A stretch of 63,500 nt of DNA, filler included, from Collodictyon triciliatum (lineage: Eukaryota): NCBI GenBank assembly GCA_043381765.1. It is 10 parts of 10 records of this genome, joined end to end, with 100 filler letters (N's around TTAATTAATTAA, not from the genome) between each part and the next. Parts side by side here need not be neighbours in the genome. Positions count along the whole stretch, not along the records: positions 1 to 6,667 come from JBHJMP010004321.1; positions 6,768 to 13,435 come from JBHJMP010004322.1; positions 13,536 to 20,203 come from JBHJMP010004323.1; positions 20,304 to 26,964 come from JBHJMP010004324.1; positions 27,065 to 33,731 come from JBHJMP010004325.1; positions 33,832 to 40,494 come from JBHJMP010004326.1; positions 40,595 to 45,003 come from JBHJMP010004328.1; positions 45,104 to 51,764 come from JBHJMP010004329.1; 2 more parts are not named here. One strand, 5' to 3'. The translations under genes and the position numbers were made by a program. The notes below the pieces were generated by a model. It saw only the letters and a list, made by a program, of their open reading frames with translations, had not been told where the DNA came from and ran no database searches. Positions 1,320-55,302 of this stretch are shown here, one piece after another. Positions within the stretch are counted from its first letter, which is position 1. Each line of letters begins with the position of its first letter.

Positions 1320-3125
1320 TCAAGGAATCCACTTTTTCTTCTCGCAGAATTTTTCCAAGTATATACCCAATAACATGCTTGCCGTGAATATCAAAGGCCC
1401 GATACTGCCGCTGGCAATACCAACAATAGCTGGGCCTGGACATAACCCTGCTATCCCCCAACCTAATAGAATCAGCAAATCAGAAAACGATCTATCTGCA
1501 CAGTAAGATTTTTTGAAGGATATTATGATTTAAACTTCACCGGATCCAAATAACGTGGCGCCTACCACAAGTTTGGCATCAATCACTTTGTTATTTGGTA
1601 CTGTAAACTTCTTCGCACAAACTGGCTTATCGAGTTTCAGGATATAGTGAAATGCTGTCACATTAATAGTAACCTAATATTTCATATATTATCATGGAAC
1701 TACTCTAATCTCAATATCTCGGACTGCACACTGAAAATCAAATTCATCACAAGACATAGAAAAAAAAGTATTACCCCAACACCCATAACAAATGCAAGCG
1801 AGGAATCCCATTCATCGATAAAGTTCAGGAAGCTGAGCACTTTATCTGGCTCTGTCCTGTTTATTGTACAATAATATGCTCATTTTATTTCGTATTTCAC
1901 CTTGTAGTTAAATTTCTGTAGATGTGGTGAAGAGAAAAATCTATTGTGTTGCTTGACTCACATTCCACTTAGGCACAGCCCCACCGCAAATATGAACCCA
2001 AAAACTACGCAATATGCATCGTAAAACCATGGGGCATTCCTGGATGAGACTTGGTCTTGGCTGCATGAGAGTAAAGATCTCTGATCAATCAAGGGCAATA
2101 TAGTTCGCAATGAAGACCTTTAATTTTCAATACCTCTCGCTCTTGTCTAGAAGCAAGTCTTTTTTTGGCATCTGCATCCAGGCGATTACGATTAAGGCGG
2201 CAGCAAGTACTATGGAGACTTCACTGTAGAGCATGCCATTGAATCTGTTATGTTCAATGTATGCAACAACTTCGTGTTATAATTTAAATATTATATCATG
2301 CTTACCCGAAATATGGTATATCCGGAATATCGGCATTTTTTTGGGATGATGGCAGCAGCTTGCTCCTTCCAATAGAAAAGAGAGATCCAAAAAACATAAA
2401 GAATCCTATGGCCACAAATGATCGAATCGAAAAGCGTGATAGTCCACACAGACCGTGGCCACTAGTGCATCCGTTAGACATCTAATCGATGATTTTTTTT
2501 ACCAAAAAAATTGCATTATTTTCATGGCATGAGCTCGCCAAGGATGAGTAGTTGATTGCTTCATAACTATGTATGATGATTGATTGATGGGAACTAACCA
2601 TAGCGCCAAATCCAACTATGAGGCCAGCAACTAAAGTAAGTGGAATACTTGTTGTGTAGGGGCCTAACCAGTCAGCTCCGGATATCTTTATCAGCCAGCC
2701 ACCCATAATCAAACCTGAAATGAAGTAGAGTCTATGTGTTTGGTATTAGAAGGATGCAGCTCGAATCATTTTTTCCTTTATTCGATTCAAAGTATGTAGC
2801 TCGAATCATAAATGTATTCTGCGAATTCAGACCTCCACGATCGTTCGTCGTTGGGTATCACAAAAGCATTTGCGACGATTCCACTTATACCTGTCTATAC
2901 CAATATATATGAGGTCTTTACATACACCATAGAATACTTTGCATTCGGGTTCATTATTCATAATACTTTTTCCTAAAATATTGCAGGTGGTAGATGGAAA
3001 AATTGCAGATATAGTTGTATAAGTAGTATTTATACTATTCTCCCAAAGAGGTACAAATTCATCAATGTGGAGACAGCCAAAACAGCTCCACCGACAGACG
3101 GGAGTAGGGGATCAAAAACAACCAT
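1320..3125 (-). CDS. Fused YeeE/YedE-family (thiosulfate/sulfur transporter, TsuA-like) membrane protein, multi-exon
   Basis: Manual splicing gives [41 protein letters not shown]...[11 protein letters not shown]...[20 protein letters not shown] (first half), then GLCLSGM...[21 protein letters not shown]...[27 protein letters not shown] (second half). These are the family's signature motifs. Internal exon boundaries are approximate. Confidence 0.85.
2754..2809 (-). mobile_element. 24-nt micro-retroinsertion (2770-2793) with 16-bp TSD, in an intron
   Basis: atgcagctcgaatcat [tttttcctttattcgattcaaagt] atgtagctcgaatcat. Confidence 0.8.
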
Positions 3126-4512
3126 GTGCTAGTGTTTTGTAAATGTACCGATGCCTCAAGAACTTCTGGAACTTTTTACGTTGAAGTAAGAAAAAAAAAG
3201 GATAACTAGAGTTGGCGTGCTCGCTAAAGAAGAAGCCTGTTTTCGACGTGTATAGGACTGATTGATAAAAGGAAATATATGATTAAAAATGCATATTCAG
3301 GAACGCGTATTTTTTCTTTTTTTTCTTTTTTCTCTTTTTTCTCTTTTTTCTCTTTTTTCTCTTTTTTCTCTTTTTTCTCTTTTTTCTCTTTTTTCTCTTT
3401 TTTCTCTTTTTTCTCTTTTTTCTTTTTTTCTTTTTTTCTTTTTTTCTTTTTTTCTTTTTTTCTTTTTTCTTTTACTTCTACTTTTCTTTATTTGCTGATC
3501 CTTATTAAGACTATTGAGAGAATAACTGCTCATTAGGATTTATTTTCTCTCAATGAACTGTTGAAAAGAAACCAAAAAAAAAAAAACTGCTCATTGGGAT
3601 TTAAACATTTGTTTTCCAAAGATACTCTGCTCTCATCTGAATGGCCCGAGATTATTGACTGGAAATGTCGCTCTGCTATGTTGGTGGGCCGTGTCTTTGG
3701 TTATGGTGGCGCCACGAACCGAACAAACTGCGTCTCAGACGCGTCCGCATGGCCTTGGATAACAGGTAACCGCTCGACTCTTTGCGGTGCATTCTCAAGT
3801 GTGTTTTTATATCCCAAAGCACCAGCACGGGAAATGCGTTTTCGCCACGTCCGGGTAAATTCGATCTTTTTTTTTTTCGGCGATAACATTTAGCCTAAAG
3901 TCTATCAAAAAAAAAATTGCACCGTAGCTATTACTAATTGTGGCTCTTTTTCTAATTAACAATTTAATTTTTTACCAGCCTATCTATGTGTTTGTCATTC
4001 TTTGTTACTTTTTTAAAGGCAGCTTTGTTTGCGCCCTAATGTCGAAAGAGAAAGATAATCGCCTGGTATTTCTTCTAGTACATGACTTGTTTAGTCCCCA
4101 CTATTACCACGTCAACCGAATATCATAAGTATTCTTTTGATTTCATTTAAAGTTTATGTAAAGAAAAAAGTATCTTTACAATAATAAAAAAAAAACGAAA
4201 AATACATTTGCCTCTAGGACAAAAATGAGCTGGGACAAGACAGTAGAAACCCCCCGGATTCTGTGGTTGGAGTTATTGTGTTTTGGGTGTAAGAAAAAGA
4301 AAAAAAAGATAGAAAGGAGATGAAAGTGGTCTCACAAGCAGACTATTCTACCCAAGGTGATTCAGCCCCAGTGTCTTTCTGGTTGTATTCGAGACTGATA
4401 GAAGAGCGGATAAAGTTGCCGGGTCGATGAAAGTTCGCACATGGCAGTTACTTTGAATATCGATTCCGACGAGTCCATTCAACCATCTATCTCAGACAAG
4501 GTTTACATCCTA

Positions 4513-5889
4513 TTACATTCCACTGGATGAGTCTTTTGAGAGGAACAACAAGTCGCTTTCCTTGCGTTTCTTGCTGGGCGACCCAGACAAAAAGCGATAC
4601 ATTGTTGTTTGTGTGGTATTATCGGAAGTGGCGCTTGACCGTCCCCTGGTTTCGGAGCCATGCGTAGCCGGCAATCGACTTTGCTTAACCAGAGTATGGA
4701 TACGCGTTTGTGGTTTTAGAAACATACACTCCTGCTTGCTCGGACTGTCTTTGGTGTGCGAAGTTCCAAGCTTGGATTCGATTTGTGCTGTCTCCTCTTG
4801 CTCCTTGGTTCTCGGTGCGACGGGCTGGGGCAGGATAAACGGACTATCTTTGGTGGGCGCTGGTTCTTGTGTTGCCTTCGCTTTAGAGTATCCTTTCGGA
4901 TAAGTAACGAAGACTGCCTTGAGGCCTCCTATGTTAACCATACTAACGTCATTCTGAATGGGTAGTTTAAGGGGATTTCTTTCGGGGTTTGGAGATGCGC
5001 TGCTCTTGGGTCTTGCGATGTGCGGGCTTGTCCGGTGTTGGCGGTGAAGGACTCGAGTGCGAGGATTCTGAAGAGGAACCGAGATTTCCTTCATATCACC
5101 GTCATCATCGTCGCTGTATGCGCGTATCTTCTGTGAGTCTTGCGGGCTCAGTTGTTGCCTGGCCTTGGCTTCCTTGTCTCCGTTGCTGCTTGTCTGCTTG
5201 GCAGGTGTATTCTTTTGCGGGGCTTTTACTTGTCGTTCGTTGTTCGTGGCTGGCGGATGCTCTTTGAGGATGCGCTTTGGACACTTTTTGCCCATGGCCG
5301 TAAACTTTGCAGAGGGCTGATTCTTGTGACAAAGAAGCTTCACCACGGCCGTGTCTGTGAAGAAGCCTTTTCCTTTTTTTATCTCTACGTGGGTCGGTCT
5401 GAACGGCTTCAGCTCCTCACGAATGAGTTGCGGCCACACGTCCAGCGGTAGTTGGTAGATCATCACCGAGGTCTCTGTTGGTTTACTTCTGCTGAAGCTG
5501 ATTGTAATATCGCTCAAACTTACTTGCCTCAGTTCCAGAAGCTTTCGGGCGTTCTCTGCAGTGCGGAAGGCAATCAGGCAAAGGCCTTAGATGTCTGGTA
5601 AGCGCAATTGGTTGGACCCTTCCCAAAGTTTGTTCGCTTTCAAGATGGAGGCGAGCGCATCTGTGAGCCTGCGGGCCTTGTTCTTGTTGTAAACGACTTG
5701 CTCGACCCCGTGAAAGAATCCTTTCCGCTCAGACAGACATGCAGGCGGCCTCCATGCACGGGTCTTCCTGGACTTACGTGAAACTTGGGGTTTTTCCGCG
5801 CCAGTGTTGGAACCAGAATAACTGGCTGCAACTTGCAAAGCCTTCGATGTGTCTCGGCCTACGTTTTCGTCGCGGCTCGTGTTTTCCAT
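4513..5889 (-). pseudogene. Intronless ~458-codon frame with one in-frame TAA (5587-5589); resembles ORF1 (gag-like, RRM-type) of an L1/Tx1 non-LTR retrotransposon
   Basis: ORFs 5587..6177 and 4513..5517 are in the same frame. The segment LIAFRTAENARKLLELRQVSLSDITISF...TSVMIYQLPLDVWPQLIREELKPF fits the LINE ORF1 pattern and is followed by a long disordered tail. No ORF2 is visible downstream. Confidence 0.4.
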
Positions 5890-6182
5890 CAGGCGCGGGA
5901 AGCTTGATATAAAACATTGACGGATTCTTGCATTGCATATCTTATCATTGCTACCCGCTTTTCTTCCGCCGGATAAACAAATAATAATGAAAATAATGAA
6001 AATAATGAAAATAATGAAAATAATGAAAATAATGAAAATAAAAACAAAAATAATGATAATAGTAGTAAAAAAATAAACAAAAAAAAAAAGGCAAACATCC
6101 AGCGAACCCCTCCTTCTAACAACCAAGCTCAACGAGGGAAACACGGGGTTTTCCCAGGCCAGCGACTGTATCCACACATAAG

Positions 6183-7026: not shown

Positions 7027-10000
7027 GAATATATGTTAAATAATCTGTCTCATCTTTGACCAATACTGCCTGTTGAAATATACAGAATGATAATTTTTCG
7101 CTGCGTAAACAATGTGATTCTCTGACAGAGGCCAATAAGAGACTAAAAGAAGAAGTTGATCATGTATACCGTTTCTTCAAAATTTAATATAATCAACATA
7201 TGGTCCATACCCAACAAAAATCATCGACATATTTTTTTCTGAAATTGAAGTGGATGCATGTTTCGAATAAAGGAGAACAAAAGAAGTAAATGCATGATTG
7301 TAGGTAAAAAACGAAAATGACCAATTGTTTAAATTCATGGGGTCTGAGGTTACTCATTCCGTAAAGTAACTTTTGAAATTATTCTCTCTTAAATTTCTTT
7401 CAACAGCAAAATAACAAAATGTAATGTAACAAAAGAATTTTATATTATTGATATTTCCAGTTTAACTAAAACACAAATGTGCCAAAATTTTCTCAATCGT
7501 GTGCAACTAGAACCGGCCATATAAGTGAGAAGCAAACAACGTCGAGTGAGCTCCAAAGTTTGAAAGAAACAAAAATTAGGCTGTCCTTTCAGGTTCGCTG
7601 GATTTAAAATCAAACACACAAATATTGGAAAACCCATGAAAAGGTCCGATGTATAGGATAATATTTTTTTTTTTAAAATAATTGATCATTTATCATGGAG
7701 ACGTCCAATACTCACATGGCACAAATATTGAGTATTCCTGTCCCGTCATTTACCTCTATTCTCATATCATACTTTTTATATATACGCTTGGATAATTAGA
7801 TAGACAAAATAAAAAAGAAGCTAACAGAAACGGAAAAAGAATGTGAGACCGTCAAAAGGCTGAACACGTTGCTGAACATTCAAAACCAGAGGCTGAAGGC
7901 ACATATTCCAGAGAATATGCATGGGGCTATATTCCTTGCTGATTACAATACAACTACAAATACCACAGCCACAGGGTATGTGAATACACAAGGGAGCACT
8001 CGATCACTCCCAGATAGAGGTGTAAGTCCTTCGCAGATTGCGCCCAAGAAAAAAAAAGAGCCAGAAAGGAAGTACTCTGGTTCAGAGTCTGAAATTCAAG
8101 TTGAACTTTCAGAAACACAAAGCATATTAAAGCATGAATTACAAGCCAAGGAAGCCTTGCTGGCGTTGAATGAAAGCCTAAAAAGAGAACTTGAAGATGC
8201 AAGAAAAATTAGTGACGAAAAGTAAATTTTTACTTATTTTCACCAAAAAATTTTTACTTTTTTTTTTTTGTGTTGTTTCAGTGTAATCTTTTCTCGGCAG
8301 AAGAAAAATGCGGTGCAAAACTAAAATTCGGAATGATAAATTAAATCAATTTCGAAATTACGCAATTTTTTTATGGATATTAATTAACGTTTGTTTGTTT
8401 GTTTGTTTGTTTGTTTGTTTGTTTGTTTGTTTGTTTGTTTGTTTGTTTGTTTGTTTGTTTGTTTGTTTGTTTGTTTGTTTGTTTCTTTTTTAAAAAAAGG
8501 AAAAAAGTCGAGGAAATTGCCACGACTCAACAGAAACGTATCTCTGAACTACTTGTCGCTGCCGAAGAAATGGACCAGATTGTATTGAATTCAAAAGCGA
8601 AAGTTCAAGAGCAAAATACCAGAATACAGGTAATTTACCTTCTCATGATGTAATGATTTGTAGACATATGAATTAAAAATATGTCTCTAACCATGCAATA
8701 CTGTAATAGAGTATCATTAACTCTTATATGAAGTTGAAATTGGGAAATATTTACATATTGTTTAGATTTTGGAGTCTTGTAACAAGAATCTGGAATCTGA
8801 AATTATTAAAAAAGAAGATGAAATACTGAAGCATTTGAATGATATCCAACAACTTCGACAACAAATGATGGACATTACTGACAAACACGAAGCAGCCTCC
8901 CAAAACTATCAGTCCGACAAACAAAGAATTCAATCAACTACTGAGAGACTTCAAAAGCAAATCGAGTTGTTCAGAGAAGAGACTCTCAAGTGGAAGGAAA
9001 AATATGAATCTGAAGAAAAGGTTATTCTCATACTGAAGCAGTTCAAAGAGACGTTGACGAGTCAAATCATGGAATGATTAATTTTTAATAATTTTTAACG
9101 ATTATCATTGCCTTTTCTCCTTCGAATAAAGGAAAAAAATCATTTCCTTTTCTCTATCAAATATGTTTACAATTTATTTAAAAATTTTCATACACGCAAT
9201 TAAAATATAGATATTGGTATTCACGTGATTTATATTATAAGGTGCGCGGATCATACCAAGTGCAGGTTAATCAGCTCCAGGAAGAGCTCATCATCAGAGG
9301 AATAAATATCCAACAGCTTAGCACTAGCATGGAGGACTATGATAAGTTATACGGAATTGTTAATCAACAAGTATCAAGACTTTTGAAATTGGCAGAGTCA
9401 TACAATGCAGAGGTTCAGACTAGCAATTTGCCAGGGTCACGGTCTCTCATCTTGCCAGAACGCTTCGAAAGCCGCTATCAATCTGATGTAGCACAATATT
9501 TTGAGATGATCGGATACACTTTCCAATCTTGTATCAAAGGTTTGTCATAAACTGGTTACTCTAGTGCAATTATTGTTTTTTCTCTTTAATAATCGAATGC
9601 AAGAAACGTGATTTTTCCCAAAATTAGAATTAAATTAATAACAACAATAAAATTAATAACAAAAATAACAAAAAAAAGCCACAAAGATAACAAAAATAAC
9701 AAAAATAACAAAAATAACAATAACAACAATAACAACAAGAACAACAAGAACAAGAACAACAAGAACAAGAACACCAAGAACAAGAACAACAAGAACAACA
9801 AGAACAACAATAAAGATATAAAAATAAAGATATAAAAATAAAGATATAAAAATAAAGATATAAAAATAAAGATATAAAAATAAAGATATAAAAATAAAGA
9901 TATAAAATAAAGATATAAAATAAAGATATAAAAAAAGATAATGAAAATAATAATAATAAAAATACCAATAATAACGCATAGAAATATAAACACATGCGCA

Positions 10001-20876: not shown

Positions 20877-23050
20877 GACTTGACAGATTCTCATTTGGGT
20901 TTTGTGGCTATGATGGCTATATCCACCGTGGGTCATCTAGAGGGGTGATGTACGGCCCTTCGTTTGGTACTGGTGATGTTGTGGGTTGCTGTCTGGATTT
21001 TATCAATTGTGCTGTATTTTTTACAAAAAACGGAACGAAGCTTGGTATATTACATCTCTGCTTGCTAAATATATGTCTATAAAGCTACCTATGAATAAAT
21101 ATTTTATAACAATCACATTCGATCGTTTTTTTTTCTTTATTCTTCGTTTCAATTTAAGCAAAATGATGGGGATCAAATTCGATTATTTAATAAATTTTAA
21201 ATGTGTTTTACTCTCAATAAAAAAAAATCCGTCTCCCATAATTACTTCCTCTTTGTCAAAAGTAAAATGATAAAATTTTTTTTATTGATTCTTAATTCAT
21301 TGATTCATTGATTCATTTATGATGCAGGGAGTCTACAATTTTCTCATATTCAGCTCTGGACTCCGTGTGTTGGATTAAAAAGTTTCAACAGCAAAGTGGA
21401 ACTTAATTTTGGACAAGCACCATTTGTGTTTGACTTTGAAAGATATATTCAGGTTAGTCACTTCATTAAAGTTTATTAATCTGAACGTTTATTATTTATT
21501 CTCTAAAAGAATTTGTTCGTAATATCTGTGGTGACGCTTTCTTAAACTTGACAAAAAAAAAAAAAAAAAAAAAAAGAGAGAGAGAGATTTAAGAACTTTT
21601 GCGCTCCCACGATAATCGACACTGTTGTAATATACGTAAAATATTGCTTATTATCTTCTCAGTTTTGAAACTTATTTTCTTTGCAATTGAATTTTTCCAT
21701 TCATTTCTTCTAGGAAAAAAAGGAGCAAATCATAGTGGATGTTGTAAGACTGAAAAACATCTTTCATAAGGACATATGCGATAGAATTATTGTTGACTAT
21801 TTGGCCCATTCTAAATATAGGTGCCTTACCTATTCGGTTCATCTCATGGATTCATTCCTTGTTTATTAAATGATCACAATCACATTATGGATAAGAGTTA
21901 TAATGAATGTTTTTTTCCTTCTGTTATTGATATAGCAACACCTATGGAAAACTCAAAGAAAATCTTGGAATCAAGGAAGGCTTTTCGTATGAGATGGAAA
22001 GATTGAGAGCTCGAAAAAGTGAACGCTGCTAATATCACCAGTGTTTTAATCAAACAAACATATTCAGTTGATCATGTCAAATTTATTACATTCTTTTACA
22101 TGTTATCCAAAAGTTAAGATGGTCTAGAATAGATATTGCATCGTTTCTTGAGTCAGGAGACGTCGATTCAGCTTTACTGAGCATACAGGAGTCATTTCCA
22201 GAAATATTAAATACACGTCGAGACATCATATTCAAAGTATTGTTTTCCCTATACTCATTCATAACCGTGCGCAAATATATATATTAAAGACAACCTGGAA
22301 AAGTATAGCTGCATTGCCAGAAGTTTATTGACATCGTCCAAACTAATCGCATTCGGGATGCCATAGAATTCGGCAAAGCGAGGTTTTGCATCTGTATTTG
22401 AGACATTTGTTTCTTCCTTTTTAGTACCCGAAATAAAATATTCAAAATTTATATAAACTGGTGAATTAGTTTGGTGAACATCATGTTGAGCGAGGATGAA
22501 GAGCGCTATCGAACAGAGGTCTTTAGTCTTCTTGCATATCCTGACTTGCTCGCATCTCCCATGGCTTATTTACTCTCCCAGAAGCAACGCTTGGAAGTGG
22601 CAGAGCTGGTTGATAGATCTATTTTAAGTCCGTTTTATTTTATTTTTTTTTTTACCATTAAAGAATGGTTACGAATATTCAGAGGCACCTGTTAAAAACA
22701 AAAGTGTGAATTTCTTTCAGAGATGTCACTGCGCACAAGAATTTTTTTTTTCCATTATTCGATTCAAAGACGCTGCGCACAAGAATAATACATGTGCAGT
22801 TTGATATACAATTCTGTTTTTCATTCTGTATAATACTAGATGCTACTATTTGTCATTCGTGTTGTTTATGTATACTTGTCTTTAACAGTTCATTAAATTT
22901 CAATTGATGCAATTTGATTATGCAGCATTATACAGTCGGAGTCATAGTGTGCTAGAAAGGGTCGCACAGCAAGCTGAGTGTGTCATGTCACACCTCCAGC
23001 TTTTAGGATGTTCAAAACATCTGGGGCTGCACATGAAGGACTTCATGTAG
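20877..23050 (+). CDS. RANBP9: RanBP9/RanBP10 (Gid1)-like SPRY-LisH-CTLH-CRA protein, 5'-partial, multi-exon
   Basis: SPRY: YGPSFGTGDVVGCCLDFINCAVFFTKNG, PCVGLK...NFGQAPFVFDFERYI. LisH: RIIVDYLAHSKY. CTLH: LESGDVDSAL...LHCQKFIDIV. CRA: FSLLAYPDLLASPMAYLLSQKQRLEVAELVDRSIL. Confidence 0.85.
22727..22786 (-). mobile_element. 28-nt micro-retroinsertion (22743-22770) with 16-bp TSD (1 mismatch), in an intron
   Basis: cactgcgcacaagaat [tttttttttccattattcgattcaaaga] cgctgcgcacaagaat. Confidence 0.8.
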
Positions 23051-29834: not shown

Positions 29835-32800
29835 GGATTGGAATTTAGTTATATTGAGCAATTTGAATAGACCTTCAATACCATATTTCTCTTTCACTTC
29901 CTCAAATCAAATTATAAGAAATCTTATGCCATTAAAGGGTTGGGCCAGATCCAGTTCGATTGGAGGTATTCAAAACTTGCTTTGGTACGTGGAGTGTCGC
30001 TGCTGAGCGACTTCTTGTTTATTACATTTCAATGTCGTATTCTAATCAGACAACTAATGCAATTCCTAAATTATTAACAGAATTTTTTGAAATCCGCACA
30101 TTATGTTGCTTCAATAATGCATAAGCTCGTTAAATTGTAGATATATTTAATGAAAGCTTTACTACGTACAAGCCCATTCTCGCACGAATCAAATATGAAT
30201 ATGACAGCTTAGTTGGGGAATATTCAAGGAAAATACAAGAATTGTACATTTTATTCTCAATTAAGTTTTAAATAATTCTAGGAATTCATGTACATACTTT
30301 GTCGTAATTCTATCGGCGAAATTCTAATATACGTTCTTTTTTCTTTTTCTTTTTCTTTTTCTTTTTCTTTTTCTTTTTCTTTTTCTTTTTCTCTTTCTCT
30401 TTCTCTTTCTCTTTCTCTTTCTCTTTCTCTTTCTTTTTCTTTTTCTTTTTCTTTTCTTTTTCTTTTTCTTTTTCTTTTTCTCTTTCTCTTTCTTTTTCTT
30501 TTTCTTTTTCTTTGTCTTTGTCTTTGTCTTTGTCTTTGTCTTTTATCTTTTATCTTTTATCTTTTATCTTTTATCTTTTATCTTTTATCTTTTATCTTTT
30601 ATCTTTTATCTTTTATCTTTTATCTTTTATCTTTTATCTTTTATCTTTTATCTTTTATCTTTTATCTTTTATCTTTTATCTTTTATCATCTTTTCTTTTG
30701 GGGAACGGTCAAAGGGAGCCCTTAGAAATCCAAATAAAAAGCGTAACTGGAGAATGTCAAAGAAAAGTTCAGATGTATTCGCAACAATACGAGCAAAATA
30801 TGTAAACATATAACATATCTCATATTTTGTCTATGTCATGAAAGAAATCATTTTATTAGCTCAGTGTATTCGATTTGATAAGCCTATCATCCAAGAGTTA
30901 CCAGTAAATTTGCCACAATATCATTTCGTAGGTCTGAGTTGGAGAAGGAACGCGAAAATGTTAAGAGGCTTGAAGGAGTTATCGAAAGTCTCAATCTTGA
31001 GATTCGAGATTTCAAAAGAAAGATAAGTGCCCTCGAAAATGAGCTTAATGAAGTAAACGAGACAAATCAAATTTTGGAAAGGAAGCTTCGCACCTTGCAA
31101 GTGAGACATGGATTCGTCGAATCATAATTTTCAATTTTGCTTTGGAAACCCTCTTTAAACTATATGATTTAATCCCAAAAAAAATGCAACTCGTATCTAG
31201 AATGAAAATCAGGAAATGAGCCTCGAGCTTCAAGATCGTAAGAATTTTTATCAATTTGAATGACAATGACCATAGGCCCTTCATGCATGTAATTTTTTTA
31301 TTGTCAAAAATATTCACATTTATCAAAAACATGTCGTGGCTTTGTCTCTTGCCAAATGATTACTACATATGTTTCAGTTCGGATACGTTATGAGGACAGG
31401 AATGCTGAAGCAGAGTATCTCCAGTCGCAAATAGAACAAATGGTACTTAGGGCGTATTTAGATCGATCAGAAAACGAGTTACGCCGAGCCAGAGAGGACT
31501 TTAACATTCAGGTAATAAAAGACGTTATTGCATGTAACTTTTTTTCCCCCTTTATTCGATTCAAAGTATTGCATGTAACCTCAACATATATCCTGATATT
31601 TACCCAAAAACATAAATTATTGAAGATATTTCAGTGTATAAAAATCATTTTTAAATCTTTCATTGCCTGAATTCCATCTTCAGCTAAATGAATGTAAAGT
31701 GCACTCCGAACGATTGAATTTATGTGAAGCTGAAGTTGTCGAAAAGAATGCCAAGATACAAATTTTTGAGGTGTTTACTCAAATTTGATTTCGTGAACGA
31801 ACCATTAAGAATCTGTAGTTATATGTTTGAGATAACATAGCTATCTGTATAGGAACAATTCACACCAAGACCCAAATGGGACGATGTGCCTATCGTATTC
31901 CATGATTTACCTCAAATGCAAGGAAGAAGTGTTGACTTATTGGTCCAAGTTACAAATTCACATCAAACAGTATGTAATCTTTTGCTTTTGCTTTTGCTTT
32001 TGCTTTTGAAGTTTTCATATATATATGAATTACAGAGTTATCTCATCGAACGCATTGAAATCATGTAATATTTCTTTGTATTTAGTTACAGCAGGAGCTC
32101 AGAATTCTTAAAGATCACATAATTGATATCAGTTTTATGCTCAAGTATTACTATTTATTGTACATGAGCCTTCAATTTTTCTCAATAAAAAAGAAAAATA
32201 CTCCTTTATTAGACTCAAATTCTTTGTTGTAAAACATAAACTGAAAATTATTACATGTATATCGGTTTCCTATCTATGCAGTCGTGTTGACAAAGAGAAA
32301 ATGCGAACTAAGGGCGATGATTATATCATTCCCCCTGGGGTAGAGGAGACAATACCAAAGTTTTTAAGGTCTTCAAAAACTATTGCATATATCATATAAT
32401 TTCTAAACTTACTGGTTTTCATTTAAAAAAAACCTATAAAAAAAGGTGGCATGGGAAGGTAAAAAATCACCACCTACTCAAGGCTCAAGCTGAGAATTTT
32501 ATTCGAGAAATAATGAATAGTCGAATTTCTCTCTCAGAAGATGAGTCTCGCCCATTGGTAATGAATAAATCATCAATCAATTGACTTTACTTTTTTTTCT
32601 CCTTTTACTACGACTTTTTTCAAATGACTCGATCTATAAATTTTGGTACGAAGCCTTTTATATTAGCTCTGTTTCTTTGAAGGTCTTCGTTCTTGATGGA
32701 TAGTTTTTTTTTAAAAAAAAAATGGCCATCAACTTAGATAGGTGACTTCATATACGACTATCTGCATAGGAGATTACTCATACCATCCCTGGTAATTGAA

Positions 32801-34020: not shown

Positions 34021-37000
34021 ATGCCTAAGCCCGACCAGAAAAAGAGGCCGGTGGCCGAAGTGAATGAAGGAAAAAATCCAGCCGATTCAAAACCTGCAAC
34101 ACTGCCGCCGAAACAAGGGGCCCAAGGAGAAAAGGCTTTTTTTCTTCTTCATAGCTTCATTTTGAATTTCTCATTATTTTTGTATTTGAGATATCCCTGG
34201 TTCGCTGATAGCTTGATTCAACTGAAGATGATTAAGTATGTTCATATCTTTAGACCTCTGAGAAGGCAGTCTCTCCCAAGGACAAGGAAGCAACACACGA
34301 AATTATTCAATACGAATGGAAAGCAGGAAGATACTTGGATGAAAGCGACGAAGGTCTTATTATATCTTGAGCTCATTTTCTGCACAGATCGCTTTGGAAG
34401 AGTGAAATCTCCACATGAAACATTCAATCTTACAGTCTACATACTCGCTTGATTACATATCGCTTCCTTGAAATATGTAGCTATAAGATGACAAACTGTA
34501 TCTTGGGGTTCCTTCCATTTTTAATGTCTTAATTGATATCCCCATCTAGACGAAGCGGATAATACTGAAGAAGCTACAGAATATACCAGCGAACAAGATG
34601 TATTATTTCGTGATCGATATATCTTAGCCTAAAATATATTTTCTGTAAACTCTATTCTTGCGTTTAAATATTATCGTTTTTTGTATTAAGGATTTTGGAG
34701 AAAGTGAAGAAAATGAGGATAATGAGGGAAGTGAAGATCAAGACAATGATGAAGACGACGACGAAGTCGATAATGACGATGATGACGATGATGACGAAGA
34801 CGAAGAAGATGATGAAGGAGAAGAAGGCGAAGATGACAAAGAAGGCGAAGGCGATGAAGATGAAGATGAAGAAGAAGAGGGCGATGAAGATGAAGATGAA
34901 GATAGTGATGGGGACAGTGACAAAAATGAGTTTTTGAGAAGCAAGCCATCAAATTCTCACCCAAAGTCTGCATCTCCACCCCAATTCAAAAAAGCTGTGG
35001 TTGATGAGAGTGACTCTTCCGAGGAAGAGGTCTATCTTCTCTTAAATTATGCAAAGCATACATTAATCACTTATCGAGATATCTTAAAGAAAATAAGATT
35101 TCTAAAGCCTGCTCTTTTTTCCCCACAGGTCGAAAATCGTGTTGGTGATATTCCAATGTGGTGGTACGATGAATATAACCACATTGGTTACAACGTCGAC
35201 GGACAGAAGATTGCGCGCAAAACAAACAAAATGGACAAACTTGACGAATTTATGCAGCAACAAGAAAAAGACAGCTTGTATTCATTTTTGCTATCATAAG
35301 CACCCTCACATATAGAAACATGGATATGCAATGAAGTTACTGAAAAATTGATAAAAATTTAAAGGCGAAACGTATATGATGAGGTGAATGACAAGGTCGT
35401 GCGATTGACCGATGAGGAAATGGAAATGATTCGTCGGATTCAAAAAGGTCAGGTCGCAGACCCCAAGTTTGATCCTTATGAGGTAATTGTTATTCCTTTC
35501 TCATGAATAAAGCATCGCCAATATTTCCTTCATTTTCTTTATTTTGAAGGGGTGTCCTACTTTATATAATAAATGCCATTCTCTAAAACTTCATCGAATA
35601 TTTAATAATGGCGTTCAATATCTCAATATGTTTATTTCTCATTCTTTTGAACATTCTACTACATCGCCAGGACATCGGCCTTATATACGATCGATCAGAC
35701 AGCATTCATCCCTTGACTAGTGGCTATGAACCCAAACGCCGTTTCATTCCATCAAAATGGGAAGCTAAGGCGGTATGCTTTCTTGTTTCCCTGTTTAGTA
35801 TTATCAATTCCGAGACATATGAATGTTTTCTCTCAATTTTATTACACTGCCCCGAATATGCAGATTGTGAGGCTTGTTCGATCTATTCGAAATGGCCATA
35901 TCAAACCCAAGAAAGAACAAAAAGACAAGAAACCCAAATTCTATGATGTAATTGTTCCATTAAATCCCCCTCCCCCCTCCCATATTCACAGTTTCCCCCA
36001 TTTATTCGATTTAAAGTCCTACATATCCCAGTTTAAACACCATGAATTGAAATTGTGGCATATATGTCATTATACTTCTTGTATTAAATCTGACAATATT
36101 GTCTATATCTTATAATAATATCTATGTATTTTTGAATTGATATTCCTATTCAACGCGAATTTTTTTTGTTCTTCTTGTTGTGAATCACTCATTGAAGGAT
36201 ATGTAGATAACACAATTATATACCATTAGATATGGAAGGACTCTGACTCAAATGCGAAGGGACGTGGAAGTGACATGCCTGCACCTAAAGTCAAGTAAAT
36301 ATTCTAGGATTCCTTTGAATATCACACATGCATATCTACAAAAAGAAGGTGTATTTTTTTTTTCGGCTTTTGAGGAATTTTCATTGTATACCAACCAAAC
36401 ACTAGACCCCCAGGACACAATGAATCATACAACCCACCAGAAGAGTACTTACCAACGCCCCAAGAAGCTGAAGCCTGGCTCAAAGCACATCCAGAGGACC
36501 GCGAAACCAACTTTTTACCCAAAAGGCAAGGCTATATATATAATCATAAAAAATGGAACATGTTAGCATATACATACGCTAGGGACCAGTTAACTCGGGG
36601 ACAATTTTTTTCTAAAGATTACAATTCATTATATACATTAATTAGCTGATAAATATTTCAAAATTTAGATATGGCGCCCTTCGATCTGTCCCAGCTTATA
36701 GCGACTTTGTAAAGGAACGTTTTGAGAGGTGCCTCGATCTTTACCTCTGCCCTCGTGCTGTTCAAAAGAAGGTGGCGAGCCAAATCTACAATGCCAAATG
36801 TCTACATCAATTCAATCACATTTTCTCATTTGTATGGAAACTTTTTATCATACTCTTTCATTTTTGATACCAAGAAATAACTTTAGTTTTCATTCCCAAT
36901 CGCAAACTCAGGCAACAATCGACCCTGAATCGCTCATTCCCAAGCTTCCATCTCCATCAGAATTGAAGCCTTTCCCATCTGAAATTGTCCTTGAATTCAC

Positions 37001-48066: not shown

Positions 48067-48098
48067 AACTCCATAATATATAGTTTCAATTTCCACAG
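48054..48098. other. 17-bp perfect inverted repeat with 11-nt loop
   Basis: ctgtggaaattgaaact-ccataatatat-agtttcaatttccacag. Confidence 0.9.
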
Positions 48099-48499: not shown

Positions 48500-48588
48500 T
48501 GTAATCTATTTGATATGGTTAGTACGGCATTAATTACATACTTAAAACTTTGCGTTTGATTTGTATAAAACTAATCTTTCAATTTGAT

Positions 48589-49170
48589 ATGCCGCCCCGC
48601 AAGTATGTCCGCAAAACCCACAGCGAAGATGACGCCAAGAAACCCAAGACCAAGACTGCCTTGCCTACCAACGACAAGGACTACACAAAAGTTCAATACA
48701 GTGACCTTAAGAAAGGTGACTACATTATGTACGAGATGAAAGCTCGCACGTACAAAGACAAGGAATATCCAGCCAAGGTCAACCAAGGGTTCGTGTCTCT
48801 GATTCAGAATGAAGTGGGAGACGCTCTCTGGAAAGACCAAGACGGCAAGGTCCTCGGCATGACAAACTATGGCAAATCGTGGACCAACAACACCAAGGAC
48901 ATCGGCGACATTTACCGACAGAGTGATGAAGCCAACATAGCCAAGCGAGAGAAAGGATTGAAAAAACATATGGACAATGCTCCTGCCCGTGCAGAGAAAC
49001 GCAAGGTTGTAGCCAAGGTCGAAAAAATGCTTCAAGAAGAAGAGAAAGATGAAGCACAGAAAAAAGAGAAAAAGCCGGACGAGCTTATTGCCCTGGCCAA
49101 GGAGATCGGTACTGAGATTAAAAAATCTAAGAAGCCTGCGAAGAAACCACGGTCATCTTCCGACGCTTGA
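48589..49170 (+). CDS. Lys-rich ORFan of the viral element (193 aa)
   Basis: ATG at 48589 (MPPRKYVRK...); coherent codon usage; 3' end overlaps the integrase 3' end by 44 nt. Confidence 0.7.
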   Translation: MPPRKYVRKTHSEDDAKKPKTKTALPTNDKDYTKVQYSDLKKGDYIMYEMKARTYKDKEYPAKVNQGFVSLIQNEVGDALWKDQDGKVLGMTNYGKSWTNNTKDIGDIYRQSDEANIAKREKGLKKHMDNAPARAEKRKVVAKVEKMLQEEEKDEAQKKEKKPDELIALAKEIGTEIKKSKKPAKKPRSSSDA

Positions 49171-50581
49171 TCGGTTTGATTGGCTCTACGGTTATCGGTT
49201 TGCTTACAGCTACCTCTTCCATAGGCTGCACCTGCAATAAAGTGCCTAAAATTCTTTTCAACTTATTAAAGTTTTTAGTTTGTAGCGTTGTCATTTTAGG
49301 GTTATCTCCGTGCTTAGCAATAAACGCATTATATGCTTGCTTGACTTTCGGTTCTAATCTATCGAGCTCGGCTTGTCGCCCTGGCTTGCTCGGAGCATTC
49401 TTGCCAGTGCGGTTTGTGAAATTTTTTGTGTCTGATGTCCACACGTTCTTATCAAAGTCAGCGCGAGCATCCTGCACGTTCGGAGCCAAATACGGCCCCT
49501 TCTTTTTTTTTACACTAGCAGCGTCTCGCTTCAGCAAATCAACCTTTGGCGTAAAGTCTTTGTCTGTGTCTTTGTCCACAGGCTGCAGGTCCCTGCGCAG
49601 AAATTTCTTCCCCTTCAATACACTCGAGTCACTTTCATTCAGCGCCTTTAGTTTATATGTGGGTGCTTTGAATCCGTCCTTCGAGACTTCGCGGCTTATA
49701 ATTTTAAACAACGCAACAGTGAATTTCGGGATCCAGTTTTTATTGGTCTTGAATTTATTGCGCTCTTGCGTTGTCAAGTTTGTTTTCTTCAGGTTCACAC
49801 GCACTAGTTGGCCAACCTCGAGTAAGTCGTCCTTGACTGAAGTGGCTGCTCGGTCTAATTTTTTCTGGTTAGCTTCTATTAACTTTGTCAAGTTTTCTTC
49901 TGTAGCTGCATTGTTGGGAATGACCCCGGTGTCACGGTTCGGCTGATCATTGATGCTGTCTGCAGTTTTTTCTAGCACTTCTTTCGTTAAGGTTTCCCCT
50001 GTCTTTTGGTGGTACTTGTACAAACTATTCTTCACCACACTATTCATGCGCTCCACGTATGCCTGGCTCGTAGGGTTGTACGCACTCGACTTGACTTGCT
50101 TGAGGCCGTGTTCTTGCAGCCACGCTTTCTCGTACTTGAACTCTGTGCCGTTGTCGCTCTGGATGACCTTGAGGGCAGGATAATCCTTCTTAAACTCAAG
50201 CACAGCTTTTTTGCTTTCGGCCAGAGTCTTGTCAGTCAGCGGGTACAGAAACACCTTGCGTGTTAAAAGCACGACACATGTCATTAGATAATTGTATTTC
50301 ACTCCAGTATGGTCTTCTGGGTACAGTCCCTTGGTATATATCAAATCTATCTGTGCGTACGACGGATCAGTGACATTAAAGGAAGTGACGTCCTTGCTTT
50401 TGTAAGCAGGCTTGCTAATTTGTTGATAGGGATTCTTTTTCATCCATGCCTCAATGTAACTGCGAGGTATCTCCTTGTTGAAGTGGTGATACATAGCATC
50501 AACACTGTTTACTTGCCCTGGGTCATTAAACCTTTTCTGTAGCCTCTCGTTATATTGGTCACTGGTACTTGGGTTACTCAT
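49127..50581 (-). CDS. Retroviral-like (rve) integrase, Polinton/Maverick/mavirus type, apparently intact
   Basis: Catalytic D (YAQIDLI), D (IQSDNGTEF) and E (AYVERMN). Followed by INDQPNRDTGVIP and the Polinton-type C-terminal domain LEVGQLVRV...WIPKFTVALFKI...TYKL...FLRRDLQPV. No RT or LTR context. Confidence 0.92.
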   Translation of the reverse strand: MSNPSTSDQYNERLQKRFNDPGQVNSVDAMYHHFNKEIPRSYIEAWMKKNPYQQISKPAYKSKDVTSFNVTDPSYAQIDLIYTKGLYPEDHTGVKYNYLMTCVVLLTRKVFLYPLTDKTLAESKKAVLEFKKDYPALKVIQSDNGTEFKYEKAWLQEHGLKQVKSSAYNPTSQAYVERMNSVVKNSLYKYHQKTGETLTKEVLEKTADSINDQPNRDTGVIPNNAATEENLTKLIEANQKKLDRAATSVKDDLLEVGQLVRVNLKKTNLTTQERNKFKTNKNWIPKFTVALFKIISREVSKDGFKAPTYKLKALNESDSSVLKGKKFLRRDLQPVDKDTDKDFTPKVDLLKRDAASVKKKKGPYLAPNVQDARADFDKNVWTSDTKNFTNRTGKNAPSKPGRQAELDRLEPKVKQAYNAFIAKHGDNPKMTTLQTKNFNKLKRILGTLLQVQPMEEVAVSKPITVEPIKPIKRRKMTVVSSQAS

Positions 50582-50670
50582 TACAATAACAATACTTTTT
50601 TTTGTGTAAAAAACGCAGCTTAAAAACTATTCAAAATCATAGATTAACTAAACAAGCATTTGCACCCACA

Positions 50671-51174
50671 ATGGCACGCACGTTAACTAGACAAGAACAC
50701 GACGACATGACAACCCGCACCTTGACCGGAGAAGAGCAAGCAAGACTCAACTACCTGTGTTTCATCGAATGGGGAGAAAACCTAGACGGCGTGCGACAGA
50801 TGGTTACAATTGCAAGGCGCTTACGCAAAAGCACTCATAAAAACTACATCAAGAGAAAAGAGAAAAGGAAACATACCAATGGCTCACATGAATTTCAAGT
50901 CGTCGAAGCGCCCGTCACTAAGATGCCCCTTGTCGATTACACAGGAATTTCTTCTAGTTCCTCGGGCTCTTCGCTCGACTCTGGCAGCCCAGACTCTCTA
51001 CGTGCTGCTGCCGAACGCGTCCGCAAAGCCCTGACCCCTCCTGCCTCTCCCCCTAAAATTTCTTACTCTCTCAAATCAACACCGACCCCCAGTCCTGTTA
51101 CATGCGGTTTTGACATGATGGAAGTATTGCCAACAGGCATGCACTCCAGTAACTTCATAAGATGCAAAGAATAA
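50671..51174 (+). CDS. ORFan of the viral element (167 aa, Ser/Pro-rich C-terminus)
   Basis: acaATG at 50671, divergent from the integrase; stop overlaps AATAAA. Confidence 0.6.
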   Translation: MARTLTRQEHDDMTTRTLTGEEQARLNYLCFIEWGENLDGVRQMVTIARRLRKSTHKNYIKRKEKRKHTNGSHEFQVVEAPVTKMPLVDYTGISSSSSGSSLDSGSPDSLRAAAERVRKALTPPASPPKISYSLKSTPTPSPVTCGFDMMEVLPTGMHSSNFIRCKE

Positions 51175-51187
51175 AATGTCTTTCACT

Positions 51188-51764
51188 TTATTCTTTTGTG
51201 CGTGCTCTCTTGGAGCTGCTGACGATCGTATCAGTAGAGAAATGCCCGTGTAAATTGGCTCCGTCTGTCATTAAAGCGCGTACCTTCGGGTAATCAATCT
51301 CATACTTGCTGTGTTTAATTTTTATATGGTCCTTGTATTGTGTTTTAAAACTCATCCATCGTTCGCTATTGGTGAACGACCTATACTCGAGCACTTTTCG
51401 ACTGGGCAATCTTTTGTTGCTAAACAGCTTGTATATGTCGTATATTTGATCAATGGCAAGTTCAAATGGAGCGCCATTGTGCCACTTACACTTACCTATG
51501 AAGAAGAGGTCGAAGCTGTCCACCGCATAGTCATTCCATTCAACAAATATGAACCTGATAAACTGTTCAACAGGGTCGGCATGTTTTTCTGCCAGTGTCT
51601 CGCATGTCTCCCTTTTTGGAAACGCGTTAAAGTTAAATTTCGCATCATACTCATTCAACAAAACCTTAACAAAAACCTTGACAAAGTCGGGGTCGCCTGT
51701 TTCGTTTGTTAATTGCTCTATTTCTTCTTCGTCAAGTCGGTGCTCTCGTACGTCAAACACCGGG
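51188..51764 (-). CDS. C-terminal part of a D5-like/SF3 primase-helicase (5'-truncated)
   Basis: PVFDV...EQLTNETGDPDFVKVFVKVLL...FNFNAFPKRE...DPVEQFI...IDQIYDIYKLF resembles the region after the SF3 helicase core in PLV/virophage primase-helicases. Walker motifs are off-contig. Confidence 0.6.
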
Positions 51765-51864: not shown

Positions 51865-52260
51865 TGACATCCTGTTTGGCCCACAATACCAAATGACCCA
51901 CGACTCTAGAATACTCTGGACAGTCACAAGGGGACATATGCTGTGGTTCTTATGGAGTGTGCGCATTCTCTCGCTCTTATGATTCACCCGAACGAGAAAT
52001 CAATGTATCGAGGCTTGAGAGCCTCGTGCAATACAGCTTCCTGAACAGCCTGCTGAAACACGCCCCCATTCTTCGCTACTCTGACTGCAAGCGAAGAGAG
52101 ATGTGGAAATGTGTCGTGCGATATCTCCCACAGCATATTCAAACCCTCGCTACCCACGCAACCAATCAACCAGTTATGTTGCCCACCTGACCAACTCGCT
52201 ATCACTGATTTCTTTCCCTTGATTTCATCATCATTACCAATCAGCATCACACAAAAAGGG
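51865..52260 (+). mobile_element. Degenerate 3' end of L1/Tx1-like LINE ORF2
   Basis: Frameshifted DILFG...ILWTVTRGHMLWFLWSVR...WKCVVRYLPQH...PPDQLAITDFFP, with the LWxxWxxR motif typical of LINE ORF2 C-termini. A homologous copy lies at 55060-55200 (-). Confidence 0.55.
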
Positions 52261-53204
52261 AACTCATACACGCATCTTCTGATTGTAATCCACTGTTGTA
52301 TTTATTATATATGTCCTAGCGATAAATTTATGTAATTGTGAAATATTGCAAGATATGATATTGTATATATAATTAATCATTCATATTTTCCACTTTTAAA
52401 TTTTTCATCTGGAGCGTAAATCAGATCTCGTTAAAAACAACGAACTAACAATCAGACTAACCCGAATCCTGCCTTCTTTCACAACGGTCACAACACATAT
52501 GTGCCATCGGAAAAACTCGTCTGCTTGGCTGTTCAACAGTTGGAAAGAGCAGAAGAACAAAGCAAAATAAAAAAGGAGTACATGAGAATAGAACAACCCT
52601 ATTATATGCCAGGAGTTTCTCGACTTTAAAAAAGCATAGTTTTCTCGTTATTCGTGCAGTATCCTGCTTGTTTAAGTTCGCTCCACATAATCGGATGAAT
52701 GCAATAACATATATCCTTTCATGGTTGTTTATTTTTAATTCTGAGTTGATTAAAGTTGGAGCCATGTTTTATTTTAGCTCAAACGCAGCTCTAAGTCCTT
52801 TTTTTAAACAAAAGAATGCTCCGTCCTGAGCCAAAGTCGATCTCTCTAAATCGCTGAGTCTGCACTGTTAAATTATGCTGTCATGTGTACGTACAAGAAA
52901 GTTTGCCTTTTACTATATTCGATTCAATCTTCAAGAGATTCAACTTTACAATGGTGGACAAGGCGTGAATGGCCGAGAGCAGAGGTGAATCGAAGAGATA
53001 ATCGAGGAAGCCAAATTATGGAAAAGAAGAAAGAGGCGGTGAGTTAGATAGGCGAGCTGTACACATGAGAACAGCAGGAATTTTTACTTCTGCACATACT
53101 CCTATGTAAACGTCTATTTAATGCTTTGTTGTACTTTATCGACGCTCAGTGCTCGTAATGAATTAACTTTTTAAAGTGTGCTTGCTCTTTTGCGTAGCTG
53201 AATT

Positions 53205-53740
53205 ATTTTTTTTTTATATTTCCTTTCAGTTTATACAAAGTGGAGGTTGTATTGTTCTGAAAGAGTCCATAATCGATTTTTAAACACGACTTTGCTTGTT
53301 GTTGAAGAGAGGCTCATTCTCTTGAACCCATTTCAAACTGGTTTGTTACAGCAACAATACCAACTCGCTTTTCCATAAAAATGTAATAGAGGGAGGTTTT
53401 TGTACTGATTCGTCGGAATTCGTTTGCTCGAGCACTAATCAGGGACTTGAGACGAAGAAGTTGTCGGTTATCGGAAATTGTATCCTGTGGGTTGGCCTGT
53501 AATCTGGGTCTTGTGCTTGCATCAAAGAGATAAGGCGAGGTTTAGTCTCTTTTCAGCCTTCTTTATGGATGTCTTTTCTCATAGGATGTTTGTAATTACG
53601 AACGTGGATGTGGCGAAGTAGGCCTTGATGAAAGAGAATTGTATGATGTCATCTAGTCTATATCGGCTATGGTGGGTGAGTGTTAAATCTTGAAATTCTT
53701 CAATTCTATACTTATAAATATTGAATAGGATGTTACTGAA
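53205..53740 (-). mobile_element. Degenerate poly(A)-tailed fragment sharing the family-2 3' tail
   Basis: Ends ctttgtataaactgaaaggaaatat(a)n. Upstream is stop- and frameshift-ridden coding-like sequence. Confidence 0.35.
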
Positions 53741-54083
53741 GTAGATAATTGCAATTAATGATGGGGTTAATAATTTTTTTTTATTTTTTTCAGCATCCGC
53801 CATGCACTTTAGTAGTCACGAGTGTAACAAGATACAATTAGTCCTCGCTTACATACATCATGCAACATGGTATGATATTCTTGGGTGAATAACTCAGTAT
53901 CTTAGATTTCATTTTATTTGACGTGATCTGTAATAATTTTGCATATTTCTTAAGCTGAACATTTTGTAAAAATGTTTTGGATTGTGTGATGAAACGTAAT
54001 CATTTTTATGGTATGGATTAAATTACCGTGCTGTATTTGATTGAATTTTTATCTTCATCTGATTGCAACCTGTTTAAATGTAT

Positions 54084-54480
54084 TTTATTCTCCCTATCGG
54101 TTTGTACAAAATAGCAAAGGCTTTGGCTCTGGTTCACTAGCCATCATGGCATGGACGCTACTTGTTGACCAGATGACGGACCAGTAGTCGTTTATCAAGA
54201 ATTACACCTGCAGCATGACCCGTAGTCTGGGTCTTATGGTTGCATAAATGAGAGAGGCGAGGCGAAATTTCATGACTTTCTCAACCTCTTCCCACATGTC
54301 TTTTCTCGCAGGGTCTGAGCGACAAAGAATGTGCAGAAGGAGAAGGAGGCCATTGAGGAAAGAGATGATAAGGTGTCATCTAATATTATTGTCAGGATTG
54401 GGTGGTGGATTGTTGAATCTTGCTTCCTGTGAGTATATCGCGTTATCCACATACTCCTTAGAAAATTACCTCTGCTATAT
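54084..54480 (-). mobile_element. Degenerate retroelement 3' fragment (family 2)
   Basis: Ends ...catgccatgatggctagtgaaccagagcc...tattttgtacaaaccgatagggagaataaaa, homologous to the intronic inserts at 63137-63242 and 14138-14193. Confidence 0.5.
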
Positions 54481-54944: not shown

Positions 54945-55200
54945 ATCTTTTAATTTTCCTATTATTCGATTCAAAGTGCACCAATGCTATGCCATACAAG
55001 AGGCGAGATAGGTGTGCATGGTAGAGAGCAAACACGAGTAGGAGAGGACGCTATTGTGGAGAAGCAAGCACTGGATAGAAATCAGTGATAACGAGTTGGT
55101 CAGGTGGCGATTCCAACTGGTTGATTAGTTGCGTGGGTAGCAGGGGTTGAGCATGTTGTGGAAAGTATCTCACGACACATACCCACTTTGCTCTTGTATG
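54945..55200 (-). mobile_element. 5'-truncated LINE copy (family 1): ORF2 end + 3'UTR ending ...GCACTTTGAATCGAATAATAGGAAAA
   Basis: WVCVVRYFPQHAQPLLPTQLINQLESPPDQLVITDFYPVLASPQ* aligns with 52100-52230 and runs into the same terminal motif found in the micro-insertions. Confidence 0.65.
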
Positions 55201-55241
55201 TAATTTAAACTTCTGTCATCATAAAGTGTCTTTATTTAAAT

Positions 55242-55302
55242 ATGTTTAAATTGAAATTACTTTGAATCGAATAAAGGAAAAAAAATGTTTAAATTGAAAT
55301 TA
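55242..55302 (+). mobile_element. 25-nt micro-retroinsertion (55260-55284) with perfect 18-bp TSD
   Basis: atgtttaaattgaaatta [ctttgaatcgaataaaggaaaaaaa] atgtttaaattgaaatta. Confidence 0.85.

What the first reader, a model, noticed from the sequence alone, without database searches (positions are those of the whole stretch)
2754..55302. Family of ultra-short (19-28 nt) retro-insertions with long TSDs, traced to a LINE 3' end
Seen: at least six copies on five contigs (2770, 7261, 9120, 22743, 31539, 55260; degenerate candidates at 35995 and 13618) of (A)CTTTGAATCGAATAAAGG(A)n, each flanked by a 13-18 bp direct repeat, mostly in introns. The same motif ends the longer LINE-like copy at 55200->54945 and a diverged copy near 52910. 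Four of six start at the same point (CTTTGAATCG). Known: poly(A) plus variable-length TSD is the signature of target-primed reverse transcription. Inference: either extreme, site-preferential abortion of TPRT (possibly at the base of a 3'UTR stem, tgcac...gtgca, just upstream in the parent; possibly host restriction) or retroposition of a defined ~20-nt RNA. About one per 10 kb implies very many copies that repeat finders would miss.
Basis: partly seen in the sequence, partly recalled or inferred. Interest (0 to 1): 0.75.

Follow-up and report, generated by a model that had tools for sequence, protein, structure and literature searches.

The report
Retrotransposon tips cut at base 18
In this unnamed eukaryote an L1-type jumping gene has left roughly a thousand insertions holding only its last 18-19 bases plus a few A's between duplicated target bases, which likely means its copying step often halts at one fixed, very early point and gives a natural test case for why such elements get truncated.

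Summary
Real. All six copies and their 13-18 bp target-site duplications (TSDs) are present; two are 11-13-nt tips, four end at nt 18-19. They are the 3' tip of an L1-superfamily LINE (APE endonuclease, RT, zf-RVT; ~95-nt 3'UTR). Genome-wide exact counts of the tip fall 2399 (15 nt), 1830 (18), 745 (20), 582 (22), 428 (28): 59% of copies stop within two bases, so truncation is not smooth. TSDs flank 77 of 153 sampled copies versus 1 of 279 control A-runs; six copies sit in repeats whose paralogues show the empty site. Junctions show no microhomology excess, discrete 15-18 bp TSDs, no cap-G, and no link between end point and tail length. A related family B has its own hot spots (nt 33, 42; 42 replicated in 5 of 20 fresh loci). 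Best reading: TPRT stopped at a sequence-anchored early barrier; run-off from a pre-cut RNA is the close rival. This scan already reported family A in other windows of this genome; my nine literature searches found no such case.

The parts
2754..2809 (-). Family A tip insertion: 19 nt + A5 (2770-2793) between 16-bp TSD copies (15/16)
7247..7296 (+). Family A 11-nt tip + 2 extra bases + decayed tail (7261-7282), 14-bp TSD (12/14), probably intronic
9104..9154 (+). Family A 11-nt tip + 2 extra bases + A6 (9120-9138), 16-bp TSD (15/16), probably intronic
22727..22786 (-). Family A 18-nt tip + 1 extra base + A9 (22743-22770), 16-bp TSD (15/16)
31526..31579 (-). Family A 18/19-nt tip + GGG + A7 (31539-31566), 13-bp perfect TSD
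55242..55302 (+). Family A 18/19-nt tip + A7 (55260-55284), 18-bp perfect TSD
35975..36035 (-). Degenerate family A tip (35999-36016) with decayed repeats, inside an intron skipped by an RNA contig (35947-36230)
13618..13635 (+). Degenerate motif match, no TSD found; uncertain
54954..55195 (-). Old 243-nt family A copy (ORF2 end + 3'UTR), 82% to parent; carries the private GGTGCAC variant
52913..53060 (-). Strongly diverged family A-like 3' end; weak support
51865..52217 (+). Family A ORF2 C-terminal fragment, 91.5% over 355 nt, at a contig start
14121..14211 (+).

Best explanation
These are 5'-truncated insertions of an L1-type LINE that keep only the last 18-19 bases plus oligo(A), likely because reverse transcription at the target stops at a fixed early barrier on the element's own RNA. 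Shown: LINE identity, TSDs, T/A nick preference, empty paralogous sites, the sharp stop, its independence of tail length, near-blunt junctions, family-specific stop positions. From established TPRT biochemistry (PMC7617806): the endonuclease nicks the bottom strand, then the top strand 15-18 nt away, the A-tail primes cDNA, and an early switch to second-strand synthesis gives a truncated copy. Inferred: the barrier is a protein contact on the poly(A)-proximal 3'UTR or a pause site (nt 18-19 and about 28 in family A, 33 and 42 in family B); the stalled cDNA is handed to the already nicked, still protected top strand without resection. The copies are dead on arrival and persist mostly in introns and spacers because 25 bp costs little (inferred).
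For: Parent has RVT_1 and zf-RVT; a relative 80% identical in RT has an APE endonuclease before RT, best solved match human L1 ORF2p, E 7.6e-45. Genome counts 2399/1830/745/582/428 for the last 15/18/20/22/28 nt, reversed controls 0: per-base survival 0.91, 0.64, 0.88, 0.95. Sample hazard 63/170 at nt 18-19 against 83/1463 elsewhere in 11-45, p 3e-28; TSD-bounded bodies 17-19 nt in 40 of 86. TSD 15-18 bp in 79 of 99; T before and A at the TSD start in 59 and 77 of 84. Overlap >=1 nt in 40 of 77 junctions against 47% simulated, p 0.23. End point versus tail length rho -0.11, p 0.51, n 41. Extra-G tails in 31 of 94 short (17-20) and 26 of 74 longer (21-45) copies. Family B: 9 ends at nt 33 and 8 at nt 42 among 59, max-bin p 0.007; 5 of 20 fresh loci end exactly at 42, threshold set beforehand (p 0.043).
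Against: No barrier is identified: the only fold with its base at nt 18 is -0.3 kcal/mol and no better than shuffles; the tip is not more conserved than the upstream 3'UTR in 19 diverged copies (0.84 against 0.71-0.85). Blunt junctions, discrete TSDs and 1-3 extra bases (22 of 99) are what human full-length insertions show (PMC11702581), which fits run-off from an RNA end equally well. The junction set is conditioned on a clean TSD, so resected events are under-counted. Exact-match counts mix truncation with mutation and with a sister family that shares only the last 16 nt.
Confidence: 0.5

Rival explanations
1. The template is already short: LINE RNA is cut or decayed 5' to 3' down to an ORF2p/PABP-protected 18-19 nt + poly(A) stub, and RT copies it to its end, so each insertion is a complete copy of a fragment.
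For: Near-blunt junctions, discrete TSDs, 22 of 99 with extra bases, as for human full-length insertions (PMC11702581 section 6); short copies keep clean TSDs more often than long ones, 118 of 159 against 12 of 31, p 2e-4; no cap-G (3 of 15 single extra bases are G), so an uncapped end.
Against: No RNA end data. Long copies that have a TSD are also mostly blunt, so bluntness is not special to the 18-mer. The long set is older and selected differently.
Confidence: 0.3
2. Ordinary smooth, very early truncation, with selection removing longer copies from a compact intron-rich genome; the peak is an artefact of subfamily boundaries.
For: Hazard is high throughout the first 45 nt and falls to 0.3-0.5% per base beyond 60; solo poly(A) and 5-nt tips with perfect TSDs exist; a sister family diverges upstream of nt 16.
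Against: TSD-bounded physical lengths peak at 17-19; a two-base step from 1830 to 745 cannot come from a smooth length cost; empty paralogues confirm 17-19-nt bodies in three copies.
Confidence: 0.08
3. A weak terminal RNA or cDNA hairpin (CUUUG with UAAAG), stabilised by protein, ends synthesis once it has been copied.
For: The 5' base of this 5-bp stem is exactly nt 18.
Confidence: 0.07
4. An independent tiny SINE or small-RNA gene of about 20 nt is mobilised in trans.
For: One dominant start point.
Against: Sequence identical to the LINE tip; continuum of lengths; shared tail polymorphism; no room for a promoter; no shared upstream flank; no Rfam match.
Confidence: 0.05

Closest known systems
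5'-truncated insertions of human LINE-1 made by TPRT (PMC7617806; PMC11702581)
   Same: APE-RT-zinc knuckle ORF2, A-tail directly after AATAAA, T/A nick site, variable TSD under 20 bp, most copies truncated.
   Different: Human de novo L1 insertions had median 712 bp, broad TSDs or deletions and microhomology when truncated (PMC11702581). Here the mode is 18 nt, set to within 1-2 bases, with discrete 15-18 bp TSDs and no microhomology excess.
Clustered 5' truncation of Alu (PMC4666360)
   Same: Non-random truncation points with little microhomology, proposed there to follow ORF2p pausing at structure or bound SRP9/14.
   Different: A minority (about 16%) of Alu copies, in broad zones near the 5' end of a structured SINE; here the majority class, at the extreme 3' tip of an autonomous LINE with no stable fold.
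Tailless retropseudogenes (PMC5322556)
   Same: Short L1-made inserts with TSDs and hot-spot breakpoints.
   Different: Those are 3'-truncated, tail-less copies of structured RNAs; these are 5'-truncated and tailed.
SINEs sharing a LINE 3' end (general knowledge)
   Same: Thousands of short non-coding copies ending like a LINE.
   Different: No head, no promoter, no own master; just the LINE tip.

Membership tests
L1 superfamily LINE (parent) | APE endonuclease N-terminal to RT in one ORF | tested here: met
   L240: Exo_endo_phos then RVT_1; this copy is 80% identical in RT to L090, a close relative rather than the same copy
L1 superfamily LINE (parent) | C-terminal zinc knuckle (zf-RVT), no RNase H | tested here: met
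   L090: zf-RVT E 1.6e-7, no RNase H hit
L1 superfamily LINE (parent) | Poly(A) tail after AATAAA; variable TSD; T/A nick preference | tested here: met
L1 superfamily LINE (parent) | ORF1 upstream of ORF2 in a full-length element | tested here: inconclusive
   No full-length copy found in the fragmented assembly; the repeated ORF at window 4513-5586 was not in the expected position in eight RT loci
L1 superfamily LINE (parent) | RT phylogeny (L1 versus Tx1 clade) | not tested
   Only similarity: human L1 ORF2p best among solved structures, far above R2
Canonical 5'-truncated L1 insertion | Smooth, broad length distribution | tested here: not met
   Step 1830 to 745 in two bases; hazard test
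Canonical 5'-truncated L1 insertion | Microhomology and variable or lost TSD at the 5' junction | tested here: not met
   40 of 77 with overlap against 47% by chance; TSD 15-18 in 79 of 99; set conditioned on a detectable TSD
TPRT insertion | Empty site with a single target copy | tested here: met
   6 of 121 complex-flank copies (190 tested) lie in repeats whose other copies lack the insert; allelic empty sites not seen
SINE | Own pol III promoter or RNA-derived head, own master | tested here: not met
   Insert is wholly the LINE tip; no Rfam match in the parent 3' end
Tailless retropseudogene | 3'-truncated, no A-tail | tested here: not met
   All end in the LINE 3' end plus A-run, median 7
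Copy of a capped short RNA | Extra 5' G | tested here: not met
   3 of 15 single extra bases are G

The most novel reading that the evidence does not exclude
L1-type retrotransposition in this lineage has a base-precise early checkpoint: a host or element factor ends the reaction (or cuts the RNA) at family-specific positions 18-42 nt from the tail, so the main product is a 25-bp scar. It would be a defence or licensing step that lets elements nick and insert but not spread, and such scars would be an unseen class in many genomes because repeat finders cannot call them.
Probability: 0.25. Interest if true: 0.8.

Novelty: new variant of a known kind. Interest (0 to 1): 0.5.

Why it matters
Why most LINE copies are 5'-truncated is unsettled (premature second-strand switch versus host repair). 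Here the outcome is concentrated at one base, in about a thousand copies, with a second family stopping at other bases, so an in vitro or transgene test can separate enzyme, RNA and host causes. Practically, thousands of 20-50 bp insertions fall below repeat-annotation limits, bias estimates of LINE activity, carry AATAAA into introns, and are good presence/absence markers.

Tried and rejected
Helical periodicity of end points: family B best period 10.75, p 0.096; family A 23-43 p 0.40: not claimed. Ruler from the nick: no tail-body correlation. Cap-G: none. Tip conservation: not higher than upstream. A rule 'stop before a template A' looks enriched (family A 23-60: 27/301 against 35/1501) but is post hoc and confounded with distance. 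Allelic empty sites: public runs held at most 0.15 of the words and the four laid were contigs covering mostly exons, so no allele test. Metagenome scan: 2 hits; L383 is a long family A copy whose flank was not found in G000, L384 has no TSD or tail and looks like chance. Limits: loci came from the first-listed contigs; many were chosen around 18-mer hits, so the sample under-counts copies shorter than 18 (genome counts are the fair measure there); the script allowed A/G one position off, which affects only a few copies beyond nt 21; the empty-site output was cut and re-summarised. Literature: searches (open-licence PMC and bioRxiv only; three returned nothing) listed no LINE with a modal insertion this short.
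Full report
Observation. The window joins ten contigs of a 75-Mb, 14,576-contig eukaryote assembly, G000. The 18-mer CTTTGAATCGAATAAAGG matches 8 places at up to 3 mismatches against 0.18 expected. A motif-blind direct-repeat scan recovered four of the six copies and the other two were read from the sequence. TSDs are 13-18 bp with 0-2 mismatches. Four copies start at nt 18 or 19 counted from the end of AAAGG; 7261 and 9120 hold only the last 11 nt plus two other bases. The 35999 candidate has decayed repeats; 13618 has none. An RNA contig 99% identical to the exons skips 35947-36230 with GT..AG ends, so the 35999 copy is intronic; for 7261, 9120 and 31539 intron position is inferred from ORFs and splice dinucleotides.

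Parent. Longer copies extend into an ORF that ends about 95 nt before the tail. L090 carries RVT_1 and zf-RVT; a relative 80% identical in RT has an APE endonuclease ahead of RT and matches human L1 ORF2p best among solved structures. The RT search gave 141 matches (lower bound). No full-length element or ORF1 was established.

Genome-wide shape. Exact matches to the last 15, 18, 20, 22 and 28 nt number 2399, 1830, 745, 582 and 428, with 0 for each reversed control. Per-base survival is 0.91, 0.64, 0.88 and 0.95; 1085 copies, 45% of those with 15 nt, stop matching at nt 18-19. These counts mix truncation with mutation and subfamily differences, so I mapped ends in fetched DNA. Of 200 distinct copies with the exact 11-mer, 153 lay in loci not chosen by long patterns; 86 had a strict TSD and 40 of those had TSD-bounded bodies of 17-19 nt; TSDs within 40 nt were found for 77 of 153 copies and 1 of 279 control A-runs. 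Hazard is 63/170 at nt 18-19 against 83/1463 at other positions 11-45 (p 3e-28; the sample under-counts copies below 18 nt). Among 99 copies of at least 22 nt (13 cut by contig ends) there are lesser clusters at 28-31 and 35-37, and hazard drops to 0.3-0.5% per base beyond 60 nt.

Proof of insertion. Of 190 TSD-bounded copies, 121 had complex flanks and 6 lay inside other repeats whose paralogues show one target copy and no insert: three family A (17-19 nt bodies) and three family B. Allelic empty sites could not be tested.

Junction anatomy. TSDs are 15-18 bp in 79 of 99, with T before and A at the start in 59 and 77 of 84. Of 99 junctions 22 have extra bases; of the other 77, 40 overlap by at least 1 nt (47% expected for blunt joins, p 0.23) and 17 by at least 2 (18% expected, p 0.24). 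Single extra bases are A 6, C 5, G 3, T 1, so no cap-G. End point does not track tail length (rho -0.11, n 41), so the stop is anchored to the RNA sequence, not to distance from the nick. Extra G's before the tail occur in 31 of 94 short and 26 of 74 intermediate copies, so both come from the same templates. Copies up to 45 nt keep a TSD more often (118 of 159) than longer ones (12 of 31), though the latter are older and differently selected. All junction statistics are conditioned on a detectable TSD.

Other families. A motif-blind scan found family B (974 exact 18-mers; one copy at window 14121-14211), whose ORF end is 36% identical to family A. Of 102 copies 68 had TSDs and 59 of these were 15-47 nt, with 9 ends at nt 33 and 8 at nt 42 (max-bin p 0.007, periodicity p 0.096). 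With a threshold noted beforehand, 5 of 20 fresh loci ended exactly at 42 by homology, 7 if TSD-bounded length is also accepted (p 0.043 against 10%). Tips of at least three further families, a 5-nt tip and solo poly(A) inserts with perfect 17-bp TSDs also occur. Very short products are thus general here, and the sharp stops are family-specific.

Mechanism. TPRT itself is established; the human L1 structure paper proposes that the top strand is nicked early and that a premature switch to second-strand synthesis gives truncation (PMC7617806: passages and Discussion read). In human cells truncated insertions show microhomology and broad TSDs, full-length ones discrete 12-18 bp TSDs and little microhomology (PMC11702581: passages and section 6). 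The tips here look like the latter. I rank first a stall at a sequence-anchored barrier with immediate hand-over to the protected top strand (0.5), second run-off from a pre-cut or decay-protected RNA stub (0.3); genome sequence cannot separate them. Stable RNA structure is not supported, although a -0.3 kcal/mol hairpin has its base at nt 18. Alu's clustered truncations, attributed to pausing at structure or bound protein, are the nearest precedent (PMC4666360: passages). PMC5322556 and PMC4859970 were read as passages only; no supplements were read.

Novelty. A new variant of a known kind: known chemistry and element class, unusual modal length and precision. Nine searches of the open-licence library listed no comparable case; subscription papers were not covered. 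This scan had already reported the same family, and a second one, in at least eight other windows of this genome; those notes are not independent support. Added here: the genome-wide survival steps, the junction tests, the empty paralogues, the replicated family B hot spot and the rejection of the stem. Interest 0.5.

Noticed in passing
window 14121-14211 (+); 63137-63242 (+); 54083-54472 (-); 53453-53693 (-): Family B LINE: one clean 47-nt tip insertion and three diverged 3' fragments.
   Followed up: yes
window 3521-3595 (+); L222, L081, L151, L241: Tip of a further family ending CTGTTGAAAAGAAACC + A-run, with TSD; longer copies exist.
   Followed up: partly
L168 7520; L149 3581; L058 405: Solo poly(A), G + poly(A) and 5-nt-tip inserts with 17-bp TSDs.
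   Followed up: partly
L125, L141, L162, L170, L259, L355: Sister family sharing only the last 16 nt with family A (upstream CCCTTCCTTCC), also mostly short.
   Followed up: partly
L042, L048, L067, L069, L086 and window 55195: Six longer family A copies stop at about nt 231-243, a possible further hot spot or a short non-autonomous form.
   Followed up: no
L066, L077, L283: Another short A-tailed family ending in TGTCGTGAAT, with TSDs.
   Followed up: no
window 4513-5586 (-): 357-aa ORF without Pfam match, repeated at about 90% in many loci; possibly an ORF1 or another mobile gene; family A tips have inserted into two of its copies.
   Followed up: partly
window 47608-51763 (-): Intronless gene cluster with an rve integrase-like ORF (49127-50626, E 3e-6, below cut-off), suggestive of a Polinton-like or viral-type element.
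   Followed up: no
window 16981-19812 (+): Intronless 943-aa ORF with pentapeptide-like, highly repetitive WD40 and Sel1-like repeats.
   Followed up: partly
window 33900-38200 (+): Intron-rich gene with 13 splice joints seen in RNA contigs.
   Followed up: partly
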